From the NCBI GenBank assembly GCA_030390025.1, contig CM059432.1, forward strand, positions 82,648,001 to 82,712,000: 64,000 nucleotides of DNA, read 5' to 3'. The notes under the pieces were generated by a model. The model had not been told where the DNA came from, made no database searches, and saw nothing but the letters and a program-made list of their open reading frames with translations. The stretch is from Squalus acanthias. Lineage: Eukaryota. This document shows positions 36,030-56,110 of the stretch, piece by piece. A program made the position numbers and the translations under genes. Numbering within the stretch: position 1 is the first letter of the stretch; the number at the start of each line of letters is the position of its first letter.

Positions 36030-37631
36030 AGTATTGAGAGGGAGAAGGTACTAGCGGTTTTAGTGGGCTTAAAAGTGGATAAATCCCCAGGCCCAGACGA
36101 GATGTATCCCAGGCTGCTGTGTGAGGCAAGAGAGGAGATTGCAGGGGCTCTGACACAAATTTTCAGAACCTCTCTGGCCACAGGGGAGATGCCAGAGGAC
36201 TGGAGGACAGCTAACGTAGTACCATTATTCAAGAAGGGTAGTAGGGATAAACCAGGGAATTGCAGGCCAGTGAGCCTAACATCAGTGGTAGGGAAATTAT
36301 TGGAAAAAATTCTGAGGGACAGAATTAGTCTCCACTTGGAGAGGCAAGGATTAATCAAGGATAGTCAGCATGGCTTTGTCAGGGGGAGATCATGTCTGAC
36401 CAATTTGATTGAATTTTTCGAGGGGGTGACTAGGTGTGTGGATGAGGGTAGTGCAGTTGATGTGGTCTACATGGACTTCAGTAAGGCTTTTGACAAAGTC
36501 CCGCATGGGAGACTGGTCAAGAAGGTAAGAGCCCATGGGATCCAGGGCAATTTGGCACATTCGATCCAAAATTGGCTTAGTGGCAGGAGGCAGAGGGTGA
36601 TGGTCGAAGGTTGTTTTTGTGACTGGAAGCCTGTGTCCAGTGGTGTACCGCAGGGATCGGTGCTGGGTCCTTTGCTGTTTGTAGTGTACATTAATGATTT
36701 AGATATGAATGTAGGAGGTATGATCAGTAAGTTCTCAGATGACATGAAAATTGGTGGAGTGGTAAATAGCCTCAGGCTACAGGACAATATAGACGGGTTG
36801 GTCAGATGGGCAGGCCAGTGGCAAATGGAATTTAACCCTGAAAAGTGTGAGGTGATGCATTTTGGGAGGACTAACAAGGCAAGGGACTACACAATGAATG
36901 GTAGGACCCTAGGAAGGACAAAGGATCAGAGGGACCTTGGTGTGCATGTATATAGATCCCTGAAGGCAGCAGGACAGGTAGATAAGGTGGTTAAAAAGGC
37001 ATATGGGATACTTGCCTTCATTAGCCGAGGTATAGAATATAAGAGCAGGGAGGTTATGATGGAGCTGTACAAAATGCTAGTTAGGCCACAGCTGGAATAC
37101 TGTGTGCAGTTCTGGTCGCCACACTATAGGAAGGATGTGATTGCATTTAAGAGGGTGCAGAGGAGATTCACCAGGATGTTACCTGGGCTGCAGCGCTTCA
37201 GCTATGAAGAGAGACTGGACAGGCTGGGGTTGTTTTCCTTAGAGCAGAGAAGGCTGAGGAGGGACCTGATTGAGGTGTACAAAATTATGAGGGGCATAGA
37301 TAGGGTAGATAGAAAGGAACTTTTCCCCTTAGTAGAGGGGTCAATAACCAGGGGGCATAGTTTCAAGATAAGGGGCAGGAGGTTTAGAGGGGATTTGAGG
37401 AAAAACTTTTTCACCCAGAGGGTGGTTGAAATCTGGAACTCACTGCCTGAAAGGGTGGTAGAGGCAGGAACCCTCACAACATTCAAGAAGCATTTAGATG
37501 AGCACTTGAAACGCCATAGCATACAAGGCTACGGACCAAGTGCTGGAAAATGGGATTAGAATAGACAGGGCTTGATGGCCGGCGCGGACACGATGGGCCG
37601 AAGGGCCTCTTTCTGTGCTGTATAACTCTAT
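36030..37631 (+). mobile_element. 5'-truncated CR1 LINE
   Basis: ORF2 RT region followed by 3' UTR (GATGGGCCGAAGGGCCTCTTTCTGTGCTG) and a TAACTCTAT tail. Confidence 0.95.
36063..37559 (+). pseudogene. CR1 ORF2 reverse transcriptase, 5'-truncated
   Basis: KSPGPD, PLFKKG, QHGF, DFSKAFDKVPH and GVPQGSVLGP motifs, with the catalytic motif reading FSDD. No endonuclease domain. Confidence 0.9.
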
Positions 37632-38593: not shown

Positions 38594-39822
38594 GGGGGAG
38601 AAACTCATTGTGTGTCAGCCGTGGCTCAGTTGGTAGCACTCTTGCTTCTGAGTCAGAAGGTTGTGGGTTCAAGTCCCACTCCAGGGACGTGAGCACATTA
38701 AGCTAGGCTGACACTCCAGTGCAGTGCTGAGGGAGTGCTGCACTTGTTGGAGGTGCCATCTTTCGGATGAGACGTTAAACCGAAGCCCCGTCTGCTCTCT
38801 CAGGTGGATGTAAAAGATCCCACGGCACTATTTTGCAAAAGAGCAGGGGAGTTATCCCTGGTGTCCTGGCCAATATTTATCCCTCATTCAACATAAAAAA
38901 AACCCAGATTATTTGGTCATTATCACATTGCTGTTTCTGGGAGCTTGCTGTGCGCAAATTGGCTGCCGCATTTCCTACATTACAACAGTGACTCCACTTC
39001 AAAAGTACTTAATTGGCTATAAAACGCTTTGAGACGTCCGGTGGTTGTAAAAGGCGCTATATAAATGCAAGTCTTTCTCTTTCTATCATTATGGCCCCAT
39101 TTGGGGTGCTAAACCTCGGAAGCAGAAAAATTATCGGCAGGCGCTAATGATGAGTGGCTCCCGCGAAATTCAGTTGGAGCGCTCCAAGAGGGATGTGGAG
39201 TGCTAAATCAAGCGCTACCACTTCCCCATGAGCGCTAAAGGGAGTGAGGGGGCAGTATCGGCAGAGCGCTGATCAATGTTCCGTGCATCGCTGCCGGATT
39301 CGCAGGCTCCCTCCCTCCCTTAAAGGGAAGGGCCAATGCTCACAGCAGTTAAAGGTAAGGCTGGCGATTGGTCAGCGACGGCACCCACGATCCACAAGGA
39401 GCAGCCCCAAGCACTCAAAGAGAGGGCAGGACTGATCAATCGTGGCAATGAAATTTTTTTTTAAAACAGCACAAAGGGATGAGAAACATTTTTTGGCCTA
39501 CCTGATCACCAATCCCTTTAATTAGCGCTCCCCAAGCATCCGGCCGAGGTCACAACGCCTCCTGCAGCTGCCGTTGCTGACGCCCGGCAAAGCTGCGGGG
39601 GGTGGAAGCGAATTTAGGATCCGGGGCGATGCGCACCGGATGACGTCACGCTATCCGGGGCGCAGGAGATCGAGGTGGTAAGTTTTACCGCCGGTGCTAC
39701 CACCCCATTGAATTTCGCGGGAGTCGTTTCTTTCGCCGCGCCTGGTCGGTAAATCGTTACCGTCCCGTTAATCCCCCCCCGGAGGCGATAACGGGAGGTG
39801 CAAAGGAGGCCAATTTCTAGCC
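38594..39822 (+). mobile_element. Related Harbinger-type MITE interrupted by a SINE
   Basis: Begins TAT|GGGGGAGAAACTC, resumes after the SINE with GCCCCATTTGGGGTGCTAA, contains GCGCTA motifs and TGACGTCA, and ends AATTTCTAGCC. Confidence 0.7.
38610..39083 (+). mobile_element. tRNA-derived DeuSINE (SacSINE1-like), full-length copy 2
   Basis: A box TGGCTCAGTTGG, B box GGTTCAAGTCC, Deu-like core, and tail GGCGCTATATAAATGCAAGTCTTTC. Confidence 0.9.
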
Positions 39823-40131: not shown

Positions 40132-40655
40132 ACAACAACAACTTGTATTTATATAGTGCCTTTAACATTGTAAAAAGTCCCAAGGCACTTCACAGGAGTA
40201 TTATAAAACAAAATTTGACATCGAGCCACATAAGGAGATATTAGGGCAGATGACCAAAAGCTTGGTCAAATAGGTAGGTTTTAAGGAGAATCTTAAAGGA
40301 GGAAAGAGAGGTAGAGAGGCGGAGAGGTTTAGGCAGGGAATTCCAGAGCTTAGGGCCTAGGCAACAGAAGGCACAGCCGCCAATGGTGGAGCAATTAAAA
40401 TCAGGGATGCTCAAGAGGGCAGAATTAGAGGAGCGCAGATATCTCAGAGGGTTGTGATGCTGGAGGAGATTACAGAGATAGGGAGGAGCAAGGCCATGTA
40501 GGGATTTGAAAACAAGGATGAGAATTTTGAAATCGAGGCGTTGCTTAACCGGGAGCCAATGTAGGTCAGCAAACACAAGGGTGATGGGTGAACGGGACTT
40601 GGTGCGAGTTAGGACACAGGCAGCAGAGCTTTGGATGACCTCAAGTTTACGGAGA
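40132..40655 (-). mobile_element. L2 LINE 3' end
   Basis: ORF 40241-40576 reads LHWLPVKQRLDFKILILVFKSLHGLAPPYL...LWNSLP...FKILLKTYLF, a typical L2 ORF2 C-terminus. (GTT)n tail. Confidence 0.9.
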
Positions 40656-40659
40656 TAAC

Positions 40660-40760
40660 CTACTCTGGAGATACAATTCTACAGGCACCAGGAGCCCTTC
40701 AGTACCTCACCCAATTGGCCATTCTTCATGTGTAAGTCTAGATAGTGTCAGCTGGTAATA
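40660..40760 (-). mobile_element. AmnSINE2-like SINE fragment
   Basis: GTACCTCACCCAATTGGCCATTCTTCATGTGTAAGTCTAG matches the reverse complement of the core at ~52030-52070. Confidence 0.55.
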
Positions 40761-41199
40761 TCCTTGTCTCCGAGTCAAAAAGTTGTGTGTTCAAGTCGCA
40801 CTCCAGAGATTTAAGCACAAAAATCTAGGCTGACCCTCCCGTGCAGTACTGAGGAAATAAAGCTCTGTTGGAGATGCCATCTTTTGGATGAGACGTTAAA
40901 CTGAGGTCCTGTCTGCTCTCTCAGGTGGACATAAAAGATCCCATGGCACTATTTTGAAGAAGAGCAGGGGGGTTATCTCTGGTGTCCTGGCCAATATTTA
41001 TCCCTCAATCAACATCACCAAAACAGATTATCTGGTCATTATCACATTGCTGTTTGTGGGAGCTTGCTGTGTGCAAATTGGCTGCCGCGTTTACTACAAT
41101 ACAACAGTGACTTAACTTCAAAAAGTACTTCATTGGCTGTAAAGCGCTTTGGGCGTCCAGTGGTCGTGAAAGATGCTATATAAATGCAAGTCTTTCTTT
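40760..41199 (+). mobile_element. DeuSINE (SacSINE1-like), copy 3, degenerate 5' end
   Basis: Aligns to copies 1, 2 and 4 over the core and tail. Confidence 0.88.
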
Positions 41200-41458
41200 A
41201 GACATTGAGGACTGGATTCTCATCCGCAATCCCTGGGTGGGATAATGGTGGGGAATGATGGAAAATTTGGGTGGTGAGGCCTACCGCCATCTCACTGCCT
41301 GACCTGCAGTTCCTTCTCCCCACTCCAGTCAGGAATTATGCTTACTGCACCCCTGCCACCTACCGCATGTAACTGGTGGCGGGCCGGCAGGGCCTGGGTT
41401 GCTGGCGGATTTTCCTCCCGTTCATTCGTTATACTACCTATTCCTGTGGCACTGGTAG

Positions 41459-42643
41459 TCATTACAGCCTTGGTCCAAACATGGATAAAGGAGCTGAATT
41501 CCAGAAGTGAGGTAAGAGTGATTGCCCCTAACAACATTTGACAGAGTGTGGCATCAAGGAGCCCTAGTAAGACTGAAATCAATGGGAATCGGGGGGAAAA
41601 CTCTCCACTGGCTGGAGTCATACCTAGCACAAAGGAAGATGGTTGTGGTGGTTGAAGGTCAATCATTACAGCCCCAGGACATCGCGGCAGGAGTTCCTCA
41701 GGGCAGTGTCGTAAGACCAACCATCTTCAGCTGCTTCATCAATGACCCTCCCTCCAACATAAGGTCAGAAATGGGGATGTTCGCTGATGACTGCACAGTG
41801 TTCAGTGCCATTCACAACTCCTCAGATAATGAAGCAGTCCATGCCCGCATGCAACAAGACCTGGACGACGTTCAAGCTTGGGCTGATAAGTGGCAGGTAA
41901 CATTCGCGCCACACAAGTGCCAGGCAATGACTATCTCCAACAAGCGAGAGTCTAACCACCGCCCCTTGACATTCAATGGCATTACCATCGCCGAATCCCC
42001 CACCATCAACATCCTGGGGATCACCATTGACCAGAAACTTAACTGGACCAGCCACATACATACTGTGGCAACAAGAGCAGGTCAGAGGCTAGGTATTCTG
42101 CGGCGAGTGTCTCACCTCCTGACTCTCGAAAGCCTTTCTACCATCTACAAGGCACAAGTAAGGAGTGTGATGGAATACACTCCACTTGCCTGGATGAGTG
42201 CAGCTCCAACAACACTCAAGAAGCTCAACACCATCCAGGACAAAGCAGCCCGCTGGATTGGCACCCCATCCACCACCTTAAACATTCACTCCCTCCACCA
42301 CCGGCGCAACGTGGCTGCAGTGTGTACCATCTACAAGATGCACTGCAGCAACACACCAATGTTTCTTCGGCAGCACCTCCCAAACCCGCGACCTCTTCCA
42401 CCTAGAAGGACAAGGGCAGCAGTCGCATGGGAACACCACCACCTCCAAGTTCCCCTCCAAGTCACAATCCCTCCTGACTTTGAAATATATCGCCGTTCCT
42501 TCATCGTCGCTGGGTCAAAATCCTGGAACTCCCTCCCTAACAGCACTGTGGGAGTACCTTCACCACGCGGACTGCAGCGGTTCAAGAAGGCGGCTCACCA
42601 CCACCTACTCAAGGGCAACTAGGGATGAACAAATAAAAAAAAG
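41459..42643 (+). mobile_element. 5'-truncated copy of the tRNA-headed CR1-group LINE family ('family B')
   Basis: ORF 41522-42622 has GVPQGS, FADD and WADKWQVTF. High identity to 46630-47715. Ends in an A-rich tail. Confidence 0.9.
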
Positions 42644-43046: not shown

Positions 43047-46000
43047 GGGAACAGTAGCATGGTGGTTATGTTACTGGACTAGTAACCCAGAGGCCTGGGC
43101 TAATAGATCCATGAGTTCAAATCCCACCAGCAGCTTCAGTTAATTAAATAAATCTGGAATAAAAAGCTAGCATGGTAACCATGAAACTACCGGATTGTCA
43201 TAAAAACCCATCTGGTTCACGAATGCCCTTTAGAGAAGAAAATCTGCCGTCCTTACTTGGTCTGGCCTATATGTGACTCCAGACCCACAGCAATGTGGTT
43301 GACTCTGAAATTGCCTAGCAAGTCACTCAGTTATACACAACTGCTACAAAAAACAATAATAAGAATAAAAAAGGATGGACCACCCATCATCGACCTCGGC
43401 ACTGGCTTCGTAACACGACAAAGGCACATCCAGCCCAGTCGACCCGGCAAAGTCCCCCTCACTAACAATTTTGGCACAAGTCCCCAGATGTTAGTGAGGG
43501 GGACTTATGCCAAAATTGGGAGAGCTGTCCCACAGACTGGTCAAGCAAAAGCCTGACATAGTCATACTCACAGAATCAGATGTTTCAGCCAATGTCCCAA
43601 ACTCCTCCATCACCATCCCTGGGTATGTCCTGTCCCACTGGCAGGACAGACCCACCAGAGGTGGCGGCACTGTGGTATACAATCAGCAGGGAGTGGCCCT
43701 AGGAGTCCTCAACATTGGCTCCGGACCCCATGAAGTCTCATGGCTTCAAGTAAAGCATGGGCAAGGAAACCCCCTGCTGATTACCACCTACCGCCCTCCC
43801 TCAGCTGATGAATCAGTACTCCTCCATGTTGAACACCACTTGGAAGAAGCACTGAGGGTAGCAAGGGCACAGAATGTAATCTGGGTGAGGGACTTCAATG
43901 CCCATCACCAAGAGTGGCTCGGTAGCACCACTACTGACCGAGCTGGCCGAGTCCTGAAGGACATAGCTGCCAGTCTGGGCCTGCGACAGGTGGTGTGAGA
44001 ACCAACACGAGAGAAAAACCTACTTGATCTCGTCCTCACCAATCTACTTGTCGCAGATGCATCTGTCCATGACAGCATTGATAGCAGTGATCACTGCACA
44101 GTCATTGTGGGGACAAAGACCCGTCTTCACACTGAGGACACCCTCCATCGTGTTGTGTGGCACTACCACCGTGCTAAATGGGATAGATTCAGAACAGATC
44201 TAGCAGCTCAAAACTGGGCATCCATGAGGTGCTGTGGGCCATCAGCAGCAGCAGAATTGTATTCCACCACAATCTGTAACCTCATGACCCAAAATATCTC
44301 TCACTCTACCATTACCATCAAGCCAGGGGACCAACCCTGGTTCAATAAGGAGTGTAGAAGGAGCAGCACCAGACATACCTAAAAATGACATGCCAACCTG
44401 AGGAAGCTGCAACACAGGACTATATGCATGCTACACAGCGGAAGCAGCATGCTGTAAACAGGGCTAAGCGATCCCACAATCAACGGATCAGATCAAAGCT
44501 CTGCAGTCCTGCCACATCCAGTCGTGAATGTTGGTGGGCAATTAAACAACTAACGGGAGGAGGAGGCTCCATGAATATCCCCATCCTCAATGATAACAGA
44601 GCCCAGCACGCGAGTGCAAAAGACAAGGCATTTGCAGCCATCTTCAGCCAGAAGTGCCGAGTGGATGATCCATATTGGCCTCCTCCTGAGGTCCACACCA
44701 TCACATAAGCCAGCCTTCAGCCAATTCAATTCACTCCACATGATATCAAGAAACAGCTAAGCGCACTGGATACAGCAAAGTCTATGGGCCCCGACAACAT
44801 AAGAACATAAGAACATAAGAAATAGGAGCAGGAATAGGCCACTTGTTCCCTCGAGCCTGCTCCGCCATTCAATAAGATCATGGCTGATCTTGGGCTCAAA
44901 GCCACTTCCCCGCCCACTCCCCATAACCCTTCACTCCCTTATCTTGCAAAAATCTGTCTATCTCCACCTTAAATGTATTTAATGACCCAGCCTCCACAGC
45001 TCTCTGGGGCAGAGAATTCCACAGATTTACGACCCTCTGAGAGAAGAAATTCCTCCTCATCTCAGTTCTAAAAGGGCGACCCTTTATTCTAAAACTGTGC
45101 CCCTGCGTTCTAGATTTCCCCATGAGGGGAAACATCCTCTCTGCATCTACCCTGTCGAGCCCCCTCAGTATCTTATATGTTTCAATAAGATCACCTCTCA
45201 TTCTTCTAAATTCCAATGAGTATAGGCCCAGCCTGCTCAACCTTTCCTCATAAGTCAACCCCCTCCTCTCTGGAATTAACCTAGTGAATCATCTCAGAAC
45301 TGCCTCCAATGCAAGTATATCCTTCCTTAAATAAGGAGACCAAAACTGTACACAGTACTCAAGGTGTGGTCTCATCAATACCCTGTACAGTTGTAGCAGG
45401 ACTTCCCTGCTTTTATACTCTAACCCCTTTGAAATAAAGGCCAACATTCCATTTGCCTTTTTGATTACTTGCTGTACCTGCGTGCTAACTTTTTGTGTTT
45501 CATGCACAAGGACCCCCAGGTCCCTCTGAACTGTAGCATTTTGTAATCTCTCTCCATTTAAATAATAATTTGCTTTTTTATTTTTCCTGCCAAAGTGTAT
45601 AACCTCGCACTTTCCCACATTATACTCCATCTGCCAAATGTTTGCCCACTCACTTAACCTGTCTATATCCCTTTTCAGGTTCTTTGAGTCCTCTGCACAA
45701 CTTGCTTTCCCACCCATCTTTGTATCATCCGCAAACTTGGCTACATTACACTCGGTCCCTTCATCCAAGTCATTAATGTAGATTGTAAATAGTTGAGGCC
45801 CCAGCGATCCCTGTGGCACCCCACTGGTTACCGTTTGCCAACCAGAAAATGACCCATTTATCGCGACGCTCTGCTTTCTGTTAGTTAGCCAATTCTCTAT
45901 CCATGCTAATATATTACCCCCAATTCCGTGAGCTCTTATTTTATGCAGTAACCTTTTACGTGGCACCTTATCGAATGCCTTCTGGAAATCCAAATACACC

Positions 46001-47776
46001 ACATCCACTGGTTCACCTTTGTCCACCCTGCTCGTTACCTCCTCAAAGAACTCCAGCAAGTTTGTTAAACATGATTTCCCTTTCATAAAACCATGCTGAC
46101 TCTGCTTGACTGCATTATGATTTTCCAAATGCCCTGCTAATGCTTCCTTAATGAAGGACTCCAGCATTTTCCCAACGACAGATGTTAGGCTAACTGGTCT
46201 ATAGTTTCCTGCTTTCTGTCTCCCTCCTTTCTTAAATAGGGGTGTTACATTTGCGGTTTTCCAATCCGCTGGGACCTCTCCAGAGTCCAGGGAATTTTGG
46301 TATATTGCAACCAATGCATCCACTATCTCTGCAGCCCGGCTGTCGTGCTGAAGACTTGTGCTAGAGAACTAGCCGCGCCTCTAGCCAAGCTGTTCCAGTA
46401 CAGCTACAACACTGGCATCTACCCGAGAATGTGGAAAATGGCCCAGGTATGTCCTGTCCACAAAAAGCAGGACAAATCCAATCCGGCCAATTACCGCCCC
46501 ATCAGTCTACTCTCAATCATCAGCAAAGTGATGGAAGGTGTCATCGACAGTGCTATCAAGTGGCACTTACTCACCAATAACCTGCTCACCGAGGCGCAGT
46601 TTGGGTTCCGCTCAGACCACTGGGCTCCAAACCTCGTTACAGCCTTGGTCCAAACATGGACAAAGGAGCTGAATTCGAGAGGTGAGGTGAGAGTGACTGC
46701 CCTTGACATCAAGGCAGCATTTGTCCGAGTGTGGCATCAAGGAGCCCTAGTAAAGCTGAAGTCAATGGGAATCAGGGGGAAAACTCTCCACTGGCTGGAG
46801 TCATACCTAGCACAAAGGAAGATGGTTGTAGTTGTTGGAGGTCAATCATCTCAGCCCCAGGACATCGCTGCAGGAGTTCCTCAAGGCAGTGTCCTAGGCC
46901 CAACCATCTTCAGCTGCTTCATCAATGACCTTCCCTCCATCATAAGGTCAGAAGTGGGGATGTTCACTGATGGTTGCACAGTGTTCAGTTTCATTCATAA
47001 CTCTTCAGATAATGAAGCATTCCATGCCCGAATACAGCAAGACTTGGATGACATTCAGGCTTGGGCTGATAAGTGGCAAGTAACATTCGTGCCACACAAG
47101 TGCCAAGCAATGACTATCTCCAACAAGAGAGAGTATAACCACCTCCCCTTGACATTCAACAGCATTACCATCGCCAAATCCCCCACCATCAACATCCTGG
47201 GAGTCACCATTGACCAGAAACTTAACTGGACCAGCCACATAAATACTGTGGCAACAAGAGCAGGTCAGAGGCTGGGTACTCTGCGGCAAGTGTCTCACCT
47301 CCTGACTCCCCAAAGCCTTTCCATCATCTACAAGGCACAAGTCAGGAGAGTGATAGAATACTCTCCACTTGCATGGATTCGTGCAGCTCTAACAACACTC
47401 AAGAAGCCTGACATCCAGGACAAAGCAGTGCGCTTGATTAGCACCTCATCCACCACCTTAAACATTCACTCCCTCCACCACCAGCCACCGACAAGGGCAG
47501 CAGGCGCATGGGAACACCACCACCTCCTAGTTCCCCTCCAAGTCACACGCCATCCTGACTTGGAAGTATATCGCCGATCCTTCATCGTCGCAGGCTCAAA
47601 ATCCTGGAACTCCCTGCCTAACAGCACTGTGGGATTACCTTCACCACAAGGACAGCAGCGGTTCAAGAAGGCGGCTCACCACCACCTTATGAAGGGCAAT
47701 TAGCAATGGGCAATAAATGCTGGCTTTGCCAGCGACGCCCACATCCCATGAACGAATAAAAATAAATAAATAAATA
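43047..47776 (+). mobile_element. Near full-length single-ORF LINE (family B) with tRNA-like 5' head, interrupted by a CR1 insertion
   Basis: A box TAGCATGGTGG (43055-43065) and B box GAGTTCAAATCCC (43113-43125). APE motifs from ~43507 (PDIVILTE, GGGT, YRPP, DFNAHH, LDLVLTN, SDH). RT at 46335-47703 (NYRPISLL, QFGFR, GVPQGSVLGP). 3' UTR and (AAAT)n tail. Confidence 0.88.
44796..46336 (-). mobile_element. 5'-truncated CR1 LINE inserted antisense into the family-B LINE
   Basis: ORFs 45289-46323 and 44896-45258 (FADD, DFQKAFDKVP). Tail appears as (AAGAACAT)n on +. The host frame GPDNI|PAVVLK is split at the insertion. Confidence 0.95.
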
Positions 47777-47854
47777 ATCACCTATGGTCAATGAAGTAAC
47801 TTTTGGTATTCCAGTAGTGAAGACTGTCTCTCCTCTATTTCCAGCTGCACAAAA

Positions 47855-48295: not shown

Positions 48296-48404
48296 CAGAC
48301 CATATCTGACACAATTTAGAATTGAGGCTTTCTAGGGAATTAATAGAAAAAAGGCGACCTTCAGTAAACATTTCCTTTGATCATTTAATCTATTTATATT
48401 TTAT

Positions 48405-48578
48405 GTTTTTTATTCATTTTATTTGTTCATGGGATGTGGGTGTCGCTGGCAAGGCCAGCATTTATTGCCCATTCCTAATTGCCCTTGAGAAGGTGGTGGT
48501 GAGCCGCCTTCTTGTTCGCTGCAGTCTGTGTGGTGAAGGTACTCTCACAGTGCTGTTAGGGAGGGAGTTCCAGGATTT
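48405..48578 (-). mobile_element. Family-B LINE 3' end fragment
   Basis: Matches the reverse complement of ~47597-47765 (GGGATGTGGGTGTCGCTGGCAAGGCCAGCATTTATTGCCC...GGAGTTCCAGGATTTT). Confidence 0.9.
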
Positions 48579-48919
48579 TGTGTTTGTATTAAAATACTGT
48601 CGAGATGAAATTCTAATTGTAGGAAGCAATCTATTTGCATTTACTGTTATACTGCTGGCGACATGAATTTGTTAGAACATGAATCATGCTCCTTTTCTTT
48701 AACAACGATAAGCATAGTTTGATAGCTCTTACTGCACCAACAGAGGAATTAACAAAAGAAGTCAAGCTCCATGATTACACACACTCTTCTTTAGGCAAAA
48801 ATGGCAGGGGCGGGGGGTGTGCAGAAATTCTTTCAAGTTTATATATCTGTCTATGTCTATTGTTCAGAGTTTCATTTGAATAATTTTGTTTTATTCCTTT
48901 TCACCTTGTGTATTTTCAG

Positions 48920-48990
48920 CTGCTACATCAAGGACAAAAAGGCATCAAAATATTTGATGTATACTTATTCCGATGAAGTAATTCAGCCAG
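48920..48990 (+). CDS. Putative host-gene exon C (CYIKDKKASKYLMYTYSDEVIQP)
   Basis: Strong acceptor CCTTTTCACCTTGTGTATTTTCAG and donor CAG|GTAATG. 71 nt, phase 2 in and phase 1 out. Only this frame is stop-free. Confidence 0.68.
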
Positions 48991-55048: not shown

Positions 55049-56110
55049 TCACATAAGAACATAAGAACATAAGAATTAGGAGCAGGAGTAGGCCATACGG
55101 CCCCTCGAGCCTGCTCCGCCATTCAATAAGATCATGGCTGATCTTCGACCTCAACTCCACTTTCCCGCCCGATCTCCAGATCCCTTGATTCCCCTAGAGT
55201 CCAAAAATCTATCTATCTCAGCCTTGAATATACTCAACAAATCAGCATCCAAAGCCCTTTGGGGTTGAGAATTCCAAAGATTCACAACCCTCTGAGTGAA
55301 GAAATTACTCCTCATCTCAGTCTTAAATGGCCTTATCCTGAAACTATGCCCCCTAGTTCTAGACTCTCCAGCCATAGGAGAACACTCTCATCCCAGGAAT
55401 CAATCTAGTGAAACTTTGTTGCACTCCCTCGAGGCAAGTATATCCTTCCTTACACAAAGGAGACCAAACTGTGCACAGTACTCCAGGTGTGGTCTCACCA
55501 AAGCCTGTACAATTGTAGCAAGACTTCCTTACTCTTGTAGTGTCAGCTGTGGCTCAGTTGGTAGCACACTCACCTCTGAGTCAGAAGGTTGTGGGTTCAC
55601 AGTCCCACTCCAGGGACTTGAGCACATAAAACTAGGCTGACACACCAGTGCAGTGCTGAGGGAGTGCTGCACTGTCGGAGGTGCCGTCTTTGGGATGAGA
55701 CGTTAAACCGAGGCCCCGTCTGCTCTCTCAGGTGGATGTAAAAGATCCCATGGCACTATTTCGAAGAAGAGCAGGGGAGTTATCCCCGGTGTCCTGGCCA
55801 ATATTTATCCCTCAACCAACATAACAAAAACAGATTATCTGGTCATTATCACATTGCTGTTTGTGGGACTTTGCTGTGTGCAAATTGGCTGCCGCGTTTC
55901 CCACACTACAACAGTGACTCCACTTCAAAAGTACTTCATTGGCTGTAAAGTGCTTTGAGATGTCCGGTGGTCGTGAAAGGCGCTAAATAAATGCAAGCCT
56001 TTCTTTCTTTTCTTTTTACTCAAACCTCCTTGCAATAAAGGCCAACTTGCCATTTGCCTTCCTAATTGCTTGCTGTTCCTGCATGCTAACTCTTTGCGTT
56101 TCTTGTACTG
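55049..56110 (-). mobile_element. CR1 LINE 3' fragment (internally deleted), interrupted by a SINE
   Basis: (AAGAACAT)n tail and ORF 55151-55375 (GESRTRGHSF...FFTQRVVNLWN). Continues at 56016-56110. Confidence 0.88.
55540..56015 (+). mobile_element. DeuSINE (SacSINE1-like), full-length copy 4
   Basis: A/B-box head, Deu-like core and (CTTT)n tail. Confidence 0.9.

What the first reader, a model, noticed from the sequence alone, without database searches (positions are those of the whole stretch)
43047..47776. Candidate Pol III-transcribed autonomous LINE: tRNA-like head, no ORF1, no sense-strand TTTT
Seen: removing the CR1 insert leaves ~3.2 kb consisting of a tRNA-like head (A box 43055, B box 43113), a ~350-bp leader, one APE+RT coding region and an (AAAT)n tail, with no room for ORF1. 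Reading the sense strand by eye I found no T4 run, except the one at 43469-43472 created by a local inversion. Even TTT is rare, while A4+ runs are common. The second copy (41459-42643) also has no TTTT, whereas the ordinary CR1 at 36063-37559 has many. Established: A/B boxes drive Pol III, T4+ terminates it, and LINEs are normally Pol II units. Inference: this family may be a protein-coding retrotransposon that captured a SINE promoter and purged Pol III terminators. That would imply translation of an uncapped RNA or a non-canonical start; I cannot fix the start codon.
Basis: partly seen in the sequence, partly recalled or inferred. Interest (0 to 1): 0.9.

Follow-up and report, generated by a model that had tools for sequence, protein, structure and literature searches.

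The report
LINE retrotransposon with a tRNA-type head
This is a worn copy of a very abundant 3.3-kb jumping gene that encodes its own copying enzymes yet begins with the tRNA-like promoter normally found on short non-coding SINEs and avoids that polymerase's stop signals, so it may be a protein-coding element read by RNA polymerase III, which is inferred and not yet shown.

Summary
The window copy belongs to a ~3.3-kb, single-ORF (973-codon APE+RT), CR1-group LINE of a cartilaginous-fish-like genome, with about 14,000 leader-to-ORF junction hits. The tRNA-Thr-like head is its true 5' end: of 20 copies picked on ORF sequence alone, 9 reach head position 1-2, 11 are 5'-truncated, and none has another 5' end. 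The ORF was under purifying selection (shared variants pN/pS 0.28 vs singletons 0.82). Absence of TTTT alone is not significant (expected 1.8; P 0.12-0.15). Windows with at least 4 T in 5 nt, which cover canonical and degenerate Pol III terminators, are depleted: 1 vs 9.5 (P 0.002), the lowest ratio against 105 control ORFs. Against this, T-poor composition and a single ORF look like clade traits, the dominant lineage has no usable AUG, and no RNA data address the polymerase. Short head+leader+tail SINE-like forms are also common. The architecture was not found in ten literature searches. Pol III transcription of a self-translating RNA is inferred at about 0.55.

The parts
43047..43130 (+). 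tRNA-derived head, tRNA-Thr(AGT)-like, with a 21-nt tandem duplication of the anticodon arm (43075-43112); authentic 5' end of the family
   Evidence: aligns to a host tRNA-Thr gene better than 998-1000 of 1000 shuffles; Rfam tRNA 19.8 bits, below cut-off
43055..43065 (+). Pol III A box (element position +9)
   Evidence: the motif around it has 30,695 genome hits at up to 2 mismatches, control 3
43113..43124 (+). Pol III B box (+67 here, +72 in the family)
43131..43336 (+). Non-coding leader/body, shared with short SINE-like forms; no significant fold; an in-frame ATG (mutated to ATT here, 43310) is followed by TAG at codon 3
43337..44800 (+). 5' part of the single ORF: Arg-rich N-terminal extension, APE endonuclease, linker (broken in this copy)
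43469..43496 (+). Private 28-bp inverted duplication that creates the copy's only sense T4
44801..46334 (-). Inserted 5'-truncated ordinary CR1 element (not part of the family)
46335..47703 (+). 3' part of the ORF: reverse transcriptase and CR1/L2-type C-terminus, stop at 47701-47703
47704..47777 (+). 3' tail: AATAAA at 47712-47717, predicted stem-loop, A-rich end
   Evidence: (z -2.3 for the family tail)
41459..42643 (+). Second, 5'-truncated copy of the same family; no T4
48401..48580 (-). Third fragment: 3' tail of the same family

Best explanation
An autonomous CR1-group LINE replaced its 5' end with a tRNA-derived SINE head and is transcribed from that internal promoter by RNA polymerase III. 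Shown: the head is the family's 5' end; there is one APE+RT ORF and no ORF1; the ORF was under purifying selection in head-bearing lineages; the sense strand lacks canonical and nearly all degenerate Pol III terminators; the tail is shared with short head+leader+tail forms. Inferred: TFIIIC binds the A and B boxes, Pol III starts at +1 and reads 3.3 kb to the first T run beyond the tail; the uncapped RNA is translated without a conventional AUG start (probably reinitiation after the in-frame AUG-GCC-UAG mini-uORF, or a non-AUG start); the protein binds the tail of its own RNA and inserts it by target-primed reverse transcription; it also moves the short forms. The clade's T-poor, single-ORF make-up is likely what allowed the switch.
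For: 9 of 20 copies picked on ORF sequence reach head nt 1-2, and none has a different 5' end; 16 of 20 picked on the head run into the APE. 13,959 leader-ORF junction hits, control 19. Majority of 16 copies: 3.3 kb, 973-codon ORF, 0 T4, 7 T3. T3 runs 5 vs 11.2 (P 0.005) and vs 15.5 (P 0.0003). 4-of-5-T windows 1 vs 9.5 (P 0.002) with no such loss for A, G or C, and 1 vs 10.8 in dinucleotide shuffles of the whole element (P 0.003). The observed/expected ratio is 0.11 vs a minimum of 0.57 in 105 control LINE ORFs, and single natural copies agree (L179 0 vs 7.5). None of 62 control ORFs is T4-free. Such degenerate motifs terminate human Pol III (PMC3141230, passages). Shared non-CpG variants: 58 synonymous, 52 nonsynonymous, 0 stops; singletons: 331, 867, 51 stops. 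Pol III transcripts retrotranspose without ORF1p, whereas Pol II versions need it (PMC2666806, abstract).
Against: T4 absence alone is not significant. The 4-of-5 measure was chosen after T3 depletion had been seen. By z-score the family (-2.4) is not the most extreme: four listed controls reach -2.4 to -3.3. Only 6 of 105 controls are comparably T-poor. The sister-clade L222 has T 0.20, Phe 2.2% and mild depletion. In 62 copies the in-frame ATG (57) is mostly blocked by TAG (40) and TAA (43), and the first Met of the open frame lies about 287 codons in. No leader structure or IRES/ribozyme match was found. SINE lengths of 100-700 bp are ascribed to weak Pol III processivity (PMC10886601, passage). 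No fully intact copy was seen among 115 scored.
Confidence: 0.55

Rival explanations
1. An ordinary Pol II LINE: the SINE head is a captured 5' UTR module (LINE 5' switching), transcription comes from a Pol II element in the head or leader, and the lack of T runs reflects the clade's composition or avoidance of U-rich splicing and polyadenylation signals.
For: 5' switching is common in LINEs (bioRxiv 2022.11.04.512097, passages). Sister-clade L222 is equally T-poor, and low Phe runs through the clade. AATAAA lies about 45 nt before the A tail. A capped RNA would ease translation.
Against: The element starts at tRNA position 1 with intact A and B boxes in both the main and the older head types. 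T-cluster depletion is much deeper than in L222 (ratio 0.11 vs 0.60) and is specific to T. L222 carries T5 and T6 in its 3' UTR, whereas this family has none before its tail. An AUG is missing under this model too.
Confidence: 0.28
2. Two-polymerase life cycle: Pol III makes the full-length template RNA (a giant SINE), while the protein comes in trans from capped Pol II read-through transcripts of some copies.
For: It removes the need to translate an uncapped RNA. Deletion forms are frequent: 11 of 20 consecutive heads lacking an exact junction hit are short head+leader+tail elements, so trans-mobilisation works well. The in-frame ATG is blocked in most copies.
Against: Purifying selection on variants shared among head-bearing copies (pN/pS 0.28, no shared non-CpG stops) means the propagating lineages needed their own ORF; about 14,000 ORF-joined copies exist.
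Confidence: 0.15
3. Chance neighbour or targeted insertion: a truncated LINE sits next to, or inserts into, a separate SINE.
For: A SINE with the same head, body and tail exists in this genome.
Against: Thousands of copies share one junction. 5' truncations fall at scattered leader positions. Flanks beyond the tail are unique and hold no SINE remainder.
Confidence: 0.02

Closest known systems
Single-ORF CR1-group LINEs (lepidopteran Zenon; lancelet and decapod relatives)
   Same: One APE+RT ORF and a CR1/L2-type C-terminal WN.LP...FK motif. Nearest RTs are 45-48% identical, in 930-990-aa proteins on 3.2-4-kb contigs; named members come from Branchiostoma, Scylla, Penaeus and Loxostege. Lepidopteran CR1 can be single-ORF and yields deletion forms (Persaeus; PMC6740152, passages).
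   Different: Persaeus has no tRNA homology or Pol III promoter. L222 has an AUG before the APE and T5/T6 in its 3' UTR; its 5' end was not recovered. Placement in Zenon could not be tested.
tRNA-derived SINEs on bipartite LINEs (Bov-tA, SINE2-1_ACar, SINE2_Gav, CoeSINE4)
   Same: tRNA head plus sequence shared with a LINE at both ends (PMC5786205 and PMC4494074, passages); the short forms here have this layout.
   Different: There the head sits only on the non-coding form, and PMC5786205 states that SINEs cannot encode a protein. Here the head is on the full coding element.
T+ SINEs (B2, Dip, Ves)
   Same: AATAAA upstream of an A tail; 3,416 tails have T4+ there against 15,181 with one T.
   Different: Those SINEs are non-coding. 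Here the T runs form near-symmetric TnAn tracts and also occur mid-tail, so they may be post-insertion tail changes; PMC8466645 (passages) reports that such T runs lengthen with age.
TRIMp3 elements (Cassandra, Helenus, Ajax)
   Same: Retroelements of a normally Pol II class that carry a small-RNA Pol III promoter (PMC10886601, passages).
   Different: They are LTR-type, short and non-coding.
Shark SINEs SacSINE1 and CmiSINEs; MetaSINEs
   Same: tRNA heads in cartilaginous fishes (PMC5499810, part 2 of 6); MetaSINE heads are also tRNA-Thr-like (PMC4824008).
   Different: By eye the body matches none of the printed Deu, Meta or UCON3 domains. SacSINE1 and CmiSINEs have L2-derived tails.

Membership tests
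Non-LTR retrotransposon, CR1 group | APE endonuclease followed by RT in one ORF | tested here: met
   Pfam PF14529/PF03372 and PF00078; motifs GDFN, SDH, YRPISL, VPQGS, ADD present in the family ORF
Non-LTR retrotransposon, CR1 group | CR1/L2-type C-terminus, no RNase H | tested here: met
   WNSLP...FKK motif shared with the window's CR1 and L2 frames (by eye); no RNase H hit in Pfam
Non-LTR retrotransposon, CR1 group | 3'-anchored copies with variable 5' truncation | tested here: met
   window copies 41459-42643 and 48401-48580
Non-LTR retrotransposon, CR1 group | Autonomy (ORF under purifying selection) | tested here: met
   pN/pS 0.28 shared vs 0.82 singleton in 24 copies; no fully intact copy among 115 scored
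Canonical two-ORF CR1 | ORF1 upstream of the APE-RT ORF | tested here: not met
   329-nt leader; the longest upstream sense frame is 99 codons stop-to-stop and overlaps the main ORF
CR1-Zenon | RT groups with reference Zenon elements | not testable with these tools
   No labelled reference is held; a lepidopteran protein (P0070) joins only at weakly supported nodes, 0.36-0.54
tRNA-derived SINE (SINE2) | 5' tRNA-derived head with A and B boxes | tested here: met
   the Rfam score is below cut-off
tRNA-derived SINE (SINE2) | Short and non-coding | tested here: not met
   3.3 kb with a 973-codon ORF; met only by the ~400-bp forms
tRNA-derived SINE (SINE2) | No internal Pol III terminator | tested here: met
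   0 T4 and one T2CT2 in the majority sequence; 14 of 24 decayed copies still have no body T4
tRNA-derived SINE (SINE2) | Transcribed by Pol III | not testable with these tools
   Only contig-level runs of uncertain type were available
T+ SINE | AATAAA, then a Pol III terminator, then an A tail | tested here: inconclusive
   T4+ in 3,416 tails vs 15,181 with one T; the pattern fits tail instability
Meta-, Deu- or UCON3-domain SINE | Conserved central domain | tested here: not met
   No resemblance by eye to the printed domains; CORE, V and other domains were not compared
Site-specific LINE targeting a SINE or tRNA gene | Target remainder on both flanks | tested here: not met
   Unique 3' flanks and truncations inside the leader

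The most novel reading that the evidence does not exclude
A vertebrate autonomous retrotransposon whose 3.3-kb RNA is made by RNA polymerase III and translated without a cap or a conventional AUG start into a ~970-aa APE-RT protein: in effect a self-sufficient protein-coding SINE, which reached over ten thousand near-full-length copies and keeps generating non-coding SINEs by internal deletion.
Probability: 0.55. Interest if true: 0.93.

Novelty: new variant of a known kind. Interest (0 to 1): 0.8.

Why it matters
The working division in the field is that LINEs are Pol II units that encode protein and SINEs are Pol III units that cannot (passages of PMC10886601 and PMC5786205). This family joins a SINE promoter head to a selected LINE ORF at high copy number. 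If Pol III does transcribe it, it is a natural long Pol III mRNA. It would make three questions testable in one construct: how far Pol III can read, how an uncapped RNA is translated, and whether the polymerase sets the need for ORF1. Even under the Pol II reading it shows a direct route from LINE to tRNA-headed SINE by simple deletion.

Tried and rejected
ARAGORN and Rfam at gathering score on the window: nothing. Rfam E-value scan of head and leader: no IRES or ribozyme family. Folding of the leader: z between -0.6 and +0.8, and no convincing covariation between old and new types. RNA evidence: no RNA holder listed on record; four laid runs are contigs of guessed type and cannot show start, strand or level. 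Viral collection: three scans found no relative. The metagenome scan returned only distant LINEs (24-42% identity), none with this head; they were used as controls. Of 57 genome-collection loci one (L222) fell in the sister clade, and it lacks its 5' end. Tail T4+ runs as proof of a terminator: set aside as ambiguous. A test of whether shared variants avoid creating T4: no shared variant does, but with 40 one-step sites the test has no power. A -1 frameshift from the overlapping 99-codon frame: no conserved slippery site seen by eye. TSDs: found in 2 of the copies with both ends (7 and 12 bp), plus one 5-bp match of doubtful standing. The bacterial promoter scan is irrelevant here. Gunnery and Mathews 1995, on functional mRNA from Pol III, was seen only as a reference title; the paper is not held. 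Repbase and Dfam could not be searched, so the family may already be catalogued there. Supplements of bioRxiv preprints were not seen.
Full report
1. Observation. The stretch 43047-47777 is as described. An A box starts at 43055 and a B box at 43113. APE and RT domains follow, split by a reverse-strand CR1 at 44801-46334. The only sense T4 (43469) lies in a 28-bp inverted duplication that none of 20 aligned siblings has. The host is a 3.7-Gb genome. Its Deu-domain SINEs and CR1 tails resemble by eye those printed for the elephant shark and relatives in the supplement of PMC7245038, so I call it cartilaginous-fish-like.

2. The head belongs to the family. A search with head plus ORF start scored 40 of 12,716 candidates. 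I fetched 20 of these at length; 17 begin within 10 nt of the window copy's first base, with unrelated upstream flanks. That sample is biased towards the head, so I made two unbiased picks (20 of 40 hits each). Of copies chosen on the APE start alone, 9 reach head position 1-2, 11 end at scattered leader positions (100-358) in unrelated DNA, and none shows another 5' end. Of copies chosen on head and leader alone, 16 run straight into the APE, one does so after an insertion, and three break off. Genome-wide, the leader-to-ORF junction motif has 13,959 hits (control 19) and the A-box motif 30,695 (control 3). Flanks beyond the tail are unique. Together these results rule out a chance neighbour or a SINE-targeting LINE.

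3. Anatomy. The majority sequence of 16 long copies is about 3.3 kb: head, a leader to nt 329, one 973-codon open frame, and a short tail with AATAAA about 45 nt before a poly(A) end. There is no room for ORF1. The head aligns to host tRNA-Thr(AGT) genes; 0 to 2 of 1000 shuffles score as high. I picked that tRNA by its anticodon loop and did not rank other tRNAs. The main subfamily duplicates the anticodon arm (21 nt); an older type has a single arm. The Rfam tRNA model scores only 19.8 bits. Copies are 3.1-6.8% from the majority, and none of 115 scored has a fully open ORF, so the family is probably not recently active here. Near-identical sequence occurs in eight coded organisms. Four laid runs cover the whole element including the head, although no single contig spans it.

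4. Autonomy. Among 24 copies, non-CpG variants shared by three or more are 58 synonymous, 52 nonsynonymous and 0 stops (pN/pS 0.28). Singletons are 331, 867 and 51 stops (0.82). The source lineages of head-bearing copies therefore needed the protein.

5. Terminator avoidance. T4 absence alone is weak: 1.84 runs are expected under codon-preserving shuffles (P 0.12-0.15). T3 runs are depleted (5 vs 11.2, P 0.005; vs 15.5, P 0.0003), whereas the window's two CR1s are not. Human Pol III also stops at T3VT, TVT3 and T2VT2 motifs (PMC3141230, passages), so I counted 5-nt windows with at least 4 T. The ORF has 1 against 9.5 expected (P 0.002), A, G and C show no such loss, and the whole element has 1 against 10.8 in dinucleotide shuffles (P 0.003). 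The single site is T2CT2, reported there at 15% termination. Across 105 control LINE ORFs of at least 500 codons, the observed/expected ratio has median 1.00 and minimum 0.57; the family's is 0.11. None of the first 62 controls is T4-free. Against this: the measure was chosen after seeing the T3 result; by z-score (-2.4) four listed controls are as low or lower; only 6 controls are comparably T-poor; and two decayed window pieces are not significant alone. The one sister-clade element with DNA, L222, has the same T content, Phe 2.2%, one T4 in its ORF and 11 vs 18 windows (P 0.07), but also T5 and T6 in its 3' UTR. Phe is 1.8% in the family, lower than in all 84 full-length homologs, yet the sister clade is low too. 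A T-poor ORF is thus probably inherited, and the extra depletion is what points to Pol III.

6. The tail. 3,416 tails have T4+ just before the A run and 15,181 have one T, which recalls T+ SINEs (PMC8466645, passages). But in 20 fetched examples of each class the T4+ tails are near-symmetric TnAn tracts, T runs also appear mid-tail, and a T-A5 junction in the leader has drifted to T2-T3 in 5 of 43 copies. I count this as inconclusive.

7. Translation. The open frame starts after a stop and has no Met for about 286 codons. An in-frame ATG lies nine codons upstream in 57 of 62 copies, but codon 3 is TAG in 40 and codon 9 is TAA in 43. Older-type heads mostly have GTG there. The Arg-rich extension before the APE resembles that of lancelet-like relatives by eye, which suggests it is translated. 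I found no leader structure, IRES or ribozyme. AUG-independent reinitiation in L1 ORF2, and translation of uncapped ribozyme-cut R2 RNA, are precedents that I recall and did not check here. This step is the weakest part of the model.

8. Short forms. Of 20 consecutive heads on contig C1 that lacked an exact junction hit, 11 are ~400-bp head+leader+tail elements (two of them duplicates), 3 run into the APE, 1 jumps to mid-ORF and 5 are interrupted. Their junctions vary and several keep bits of both ORF ends, so deletion from LINE to SINE happens repeatedly. Of 17 older-type heads, 11 join the tail directly, several at one shared junction, and 1 (L219) runs into the ORF. Leader-to-tail joints also appear in other organisms' runs. 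Whether the SINE or the headed LINE came first is not settled. A template switch between a SINE and its partner LINE would fit the model in PMC5786205 (passages).

9. Relations and novelty. The RT is 45-48% identical to its nearest relatives and groups (support 0.78-0.84) with lancelet and decapod single-ORF-sized proteins. It is a CR1-group LINE, possibly Zenon-like (untested), and not a SINE by definition. Ten searches of the held literature listed no description of a protein-coding LINE with a tRNA head. I read listings only, except for the papers cited by call; subscription journals, Repbase and Dfam are not covered. The passages read state the opposite rule. PMC2666806 (abstract) links Pol III transcription to ORF1 independence, though the missing ORF1 here probably predates the head. 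Two earlier notes of this scan describe other copies of the same family; they agree but are not independent.

10. Verdict. The architecture is established: an abundant, once-autonomous LINE whose 5' end is a SINE promoter head. Pol III transcription with cis translation is the best reading (0.55), ahead of a Pol II LINE with a passenger head (0.28) and a two-polymerase cycle (0.15). Interest 0.8.

Noticed in passing
window 5370-35480: A ~30-kb array of a 15-bp satellite (over 1,800 register positions) that gives spurious ~2,980-codon open frames on both strands.
   Followed up: no
window ~38620-39080, ~40750-41200, ~55545-56000: Three Deu-domain tRNA SINE copies (SacSINE1-like; the name is recalled, and the Deu domain was compared by eye).
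   Followed up: partly
window 48921-48990: A possible + strand exon (AG...GT, one open frame), which suggests that the element lies in a host intron; unverified.
   Followed up: no
L031-L090, many copies: The family is unusually prone to internal deletions at short direct repeats, for example a recurrent 12-nt loss in the leader and losses in the head; this may reflect RT template jumping.
   Followed up: partly
G000:C26:41657441-41692577 and contigs C319, C460, C603, C959, C1017: Tandem arrays of tRNA-Thr(AGT) genes with a period of about 2.06 kb.
   Followed up: no
L222-L278: Many bacterial MAGs in the genome collection contain eukaryotic LINE contigs, apparently host contamination.
   Followed up: no
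P0028-P0115 clade and the lancelet-like clade P0001-P0020: A wide clade of ~940-aa APE-RT proteins with low Phe (mostly 2-3.5%, against 4-6% outside) on 3-4-kb contigs; their 5' ends should be checked for tRNA heads.
   Followed up: partly
L279-L318: Poly(A) tails in this genome often turn into near-symmetric TnAn tracts.
   Followed up: partly
window 40141-40678 (minus strand): An L2-type 3' fragment with six sense T4 runs.
   Followed up: no
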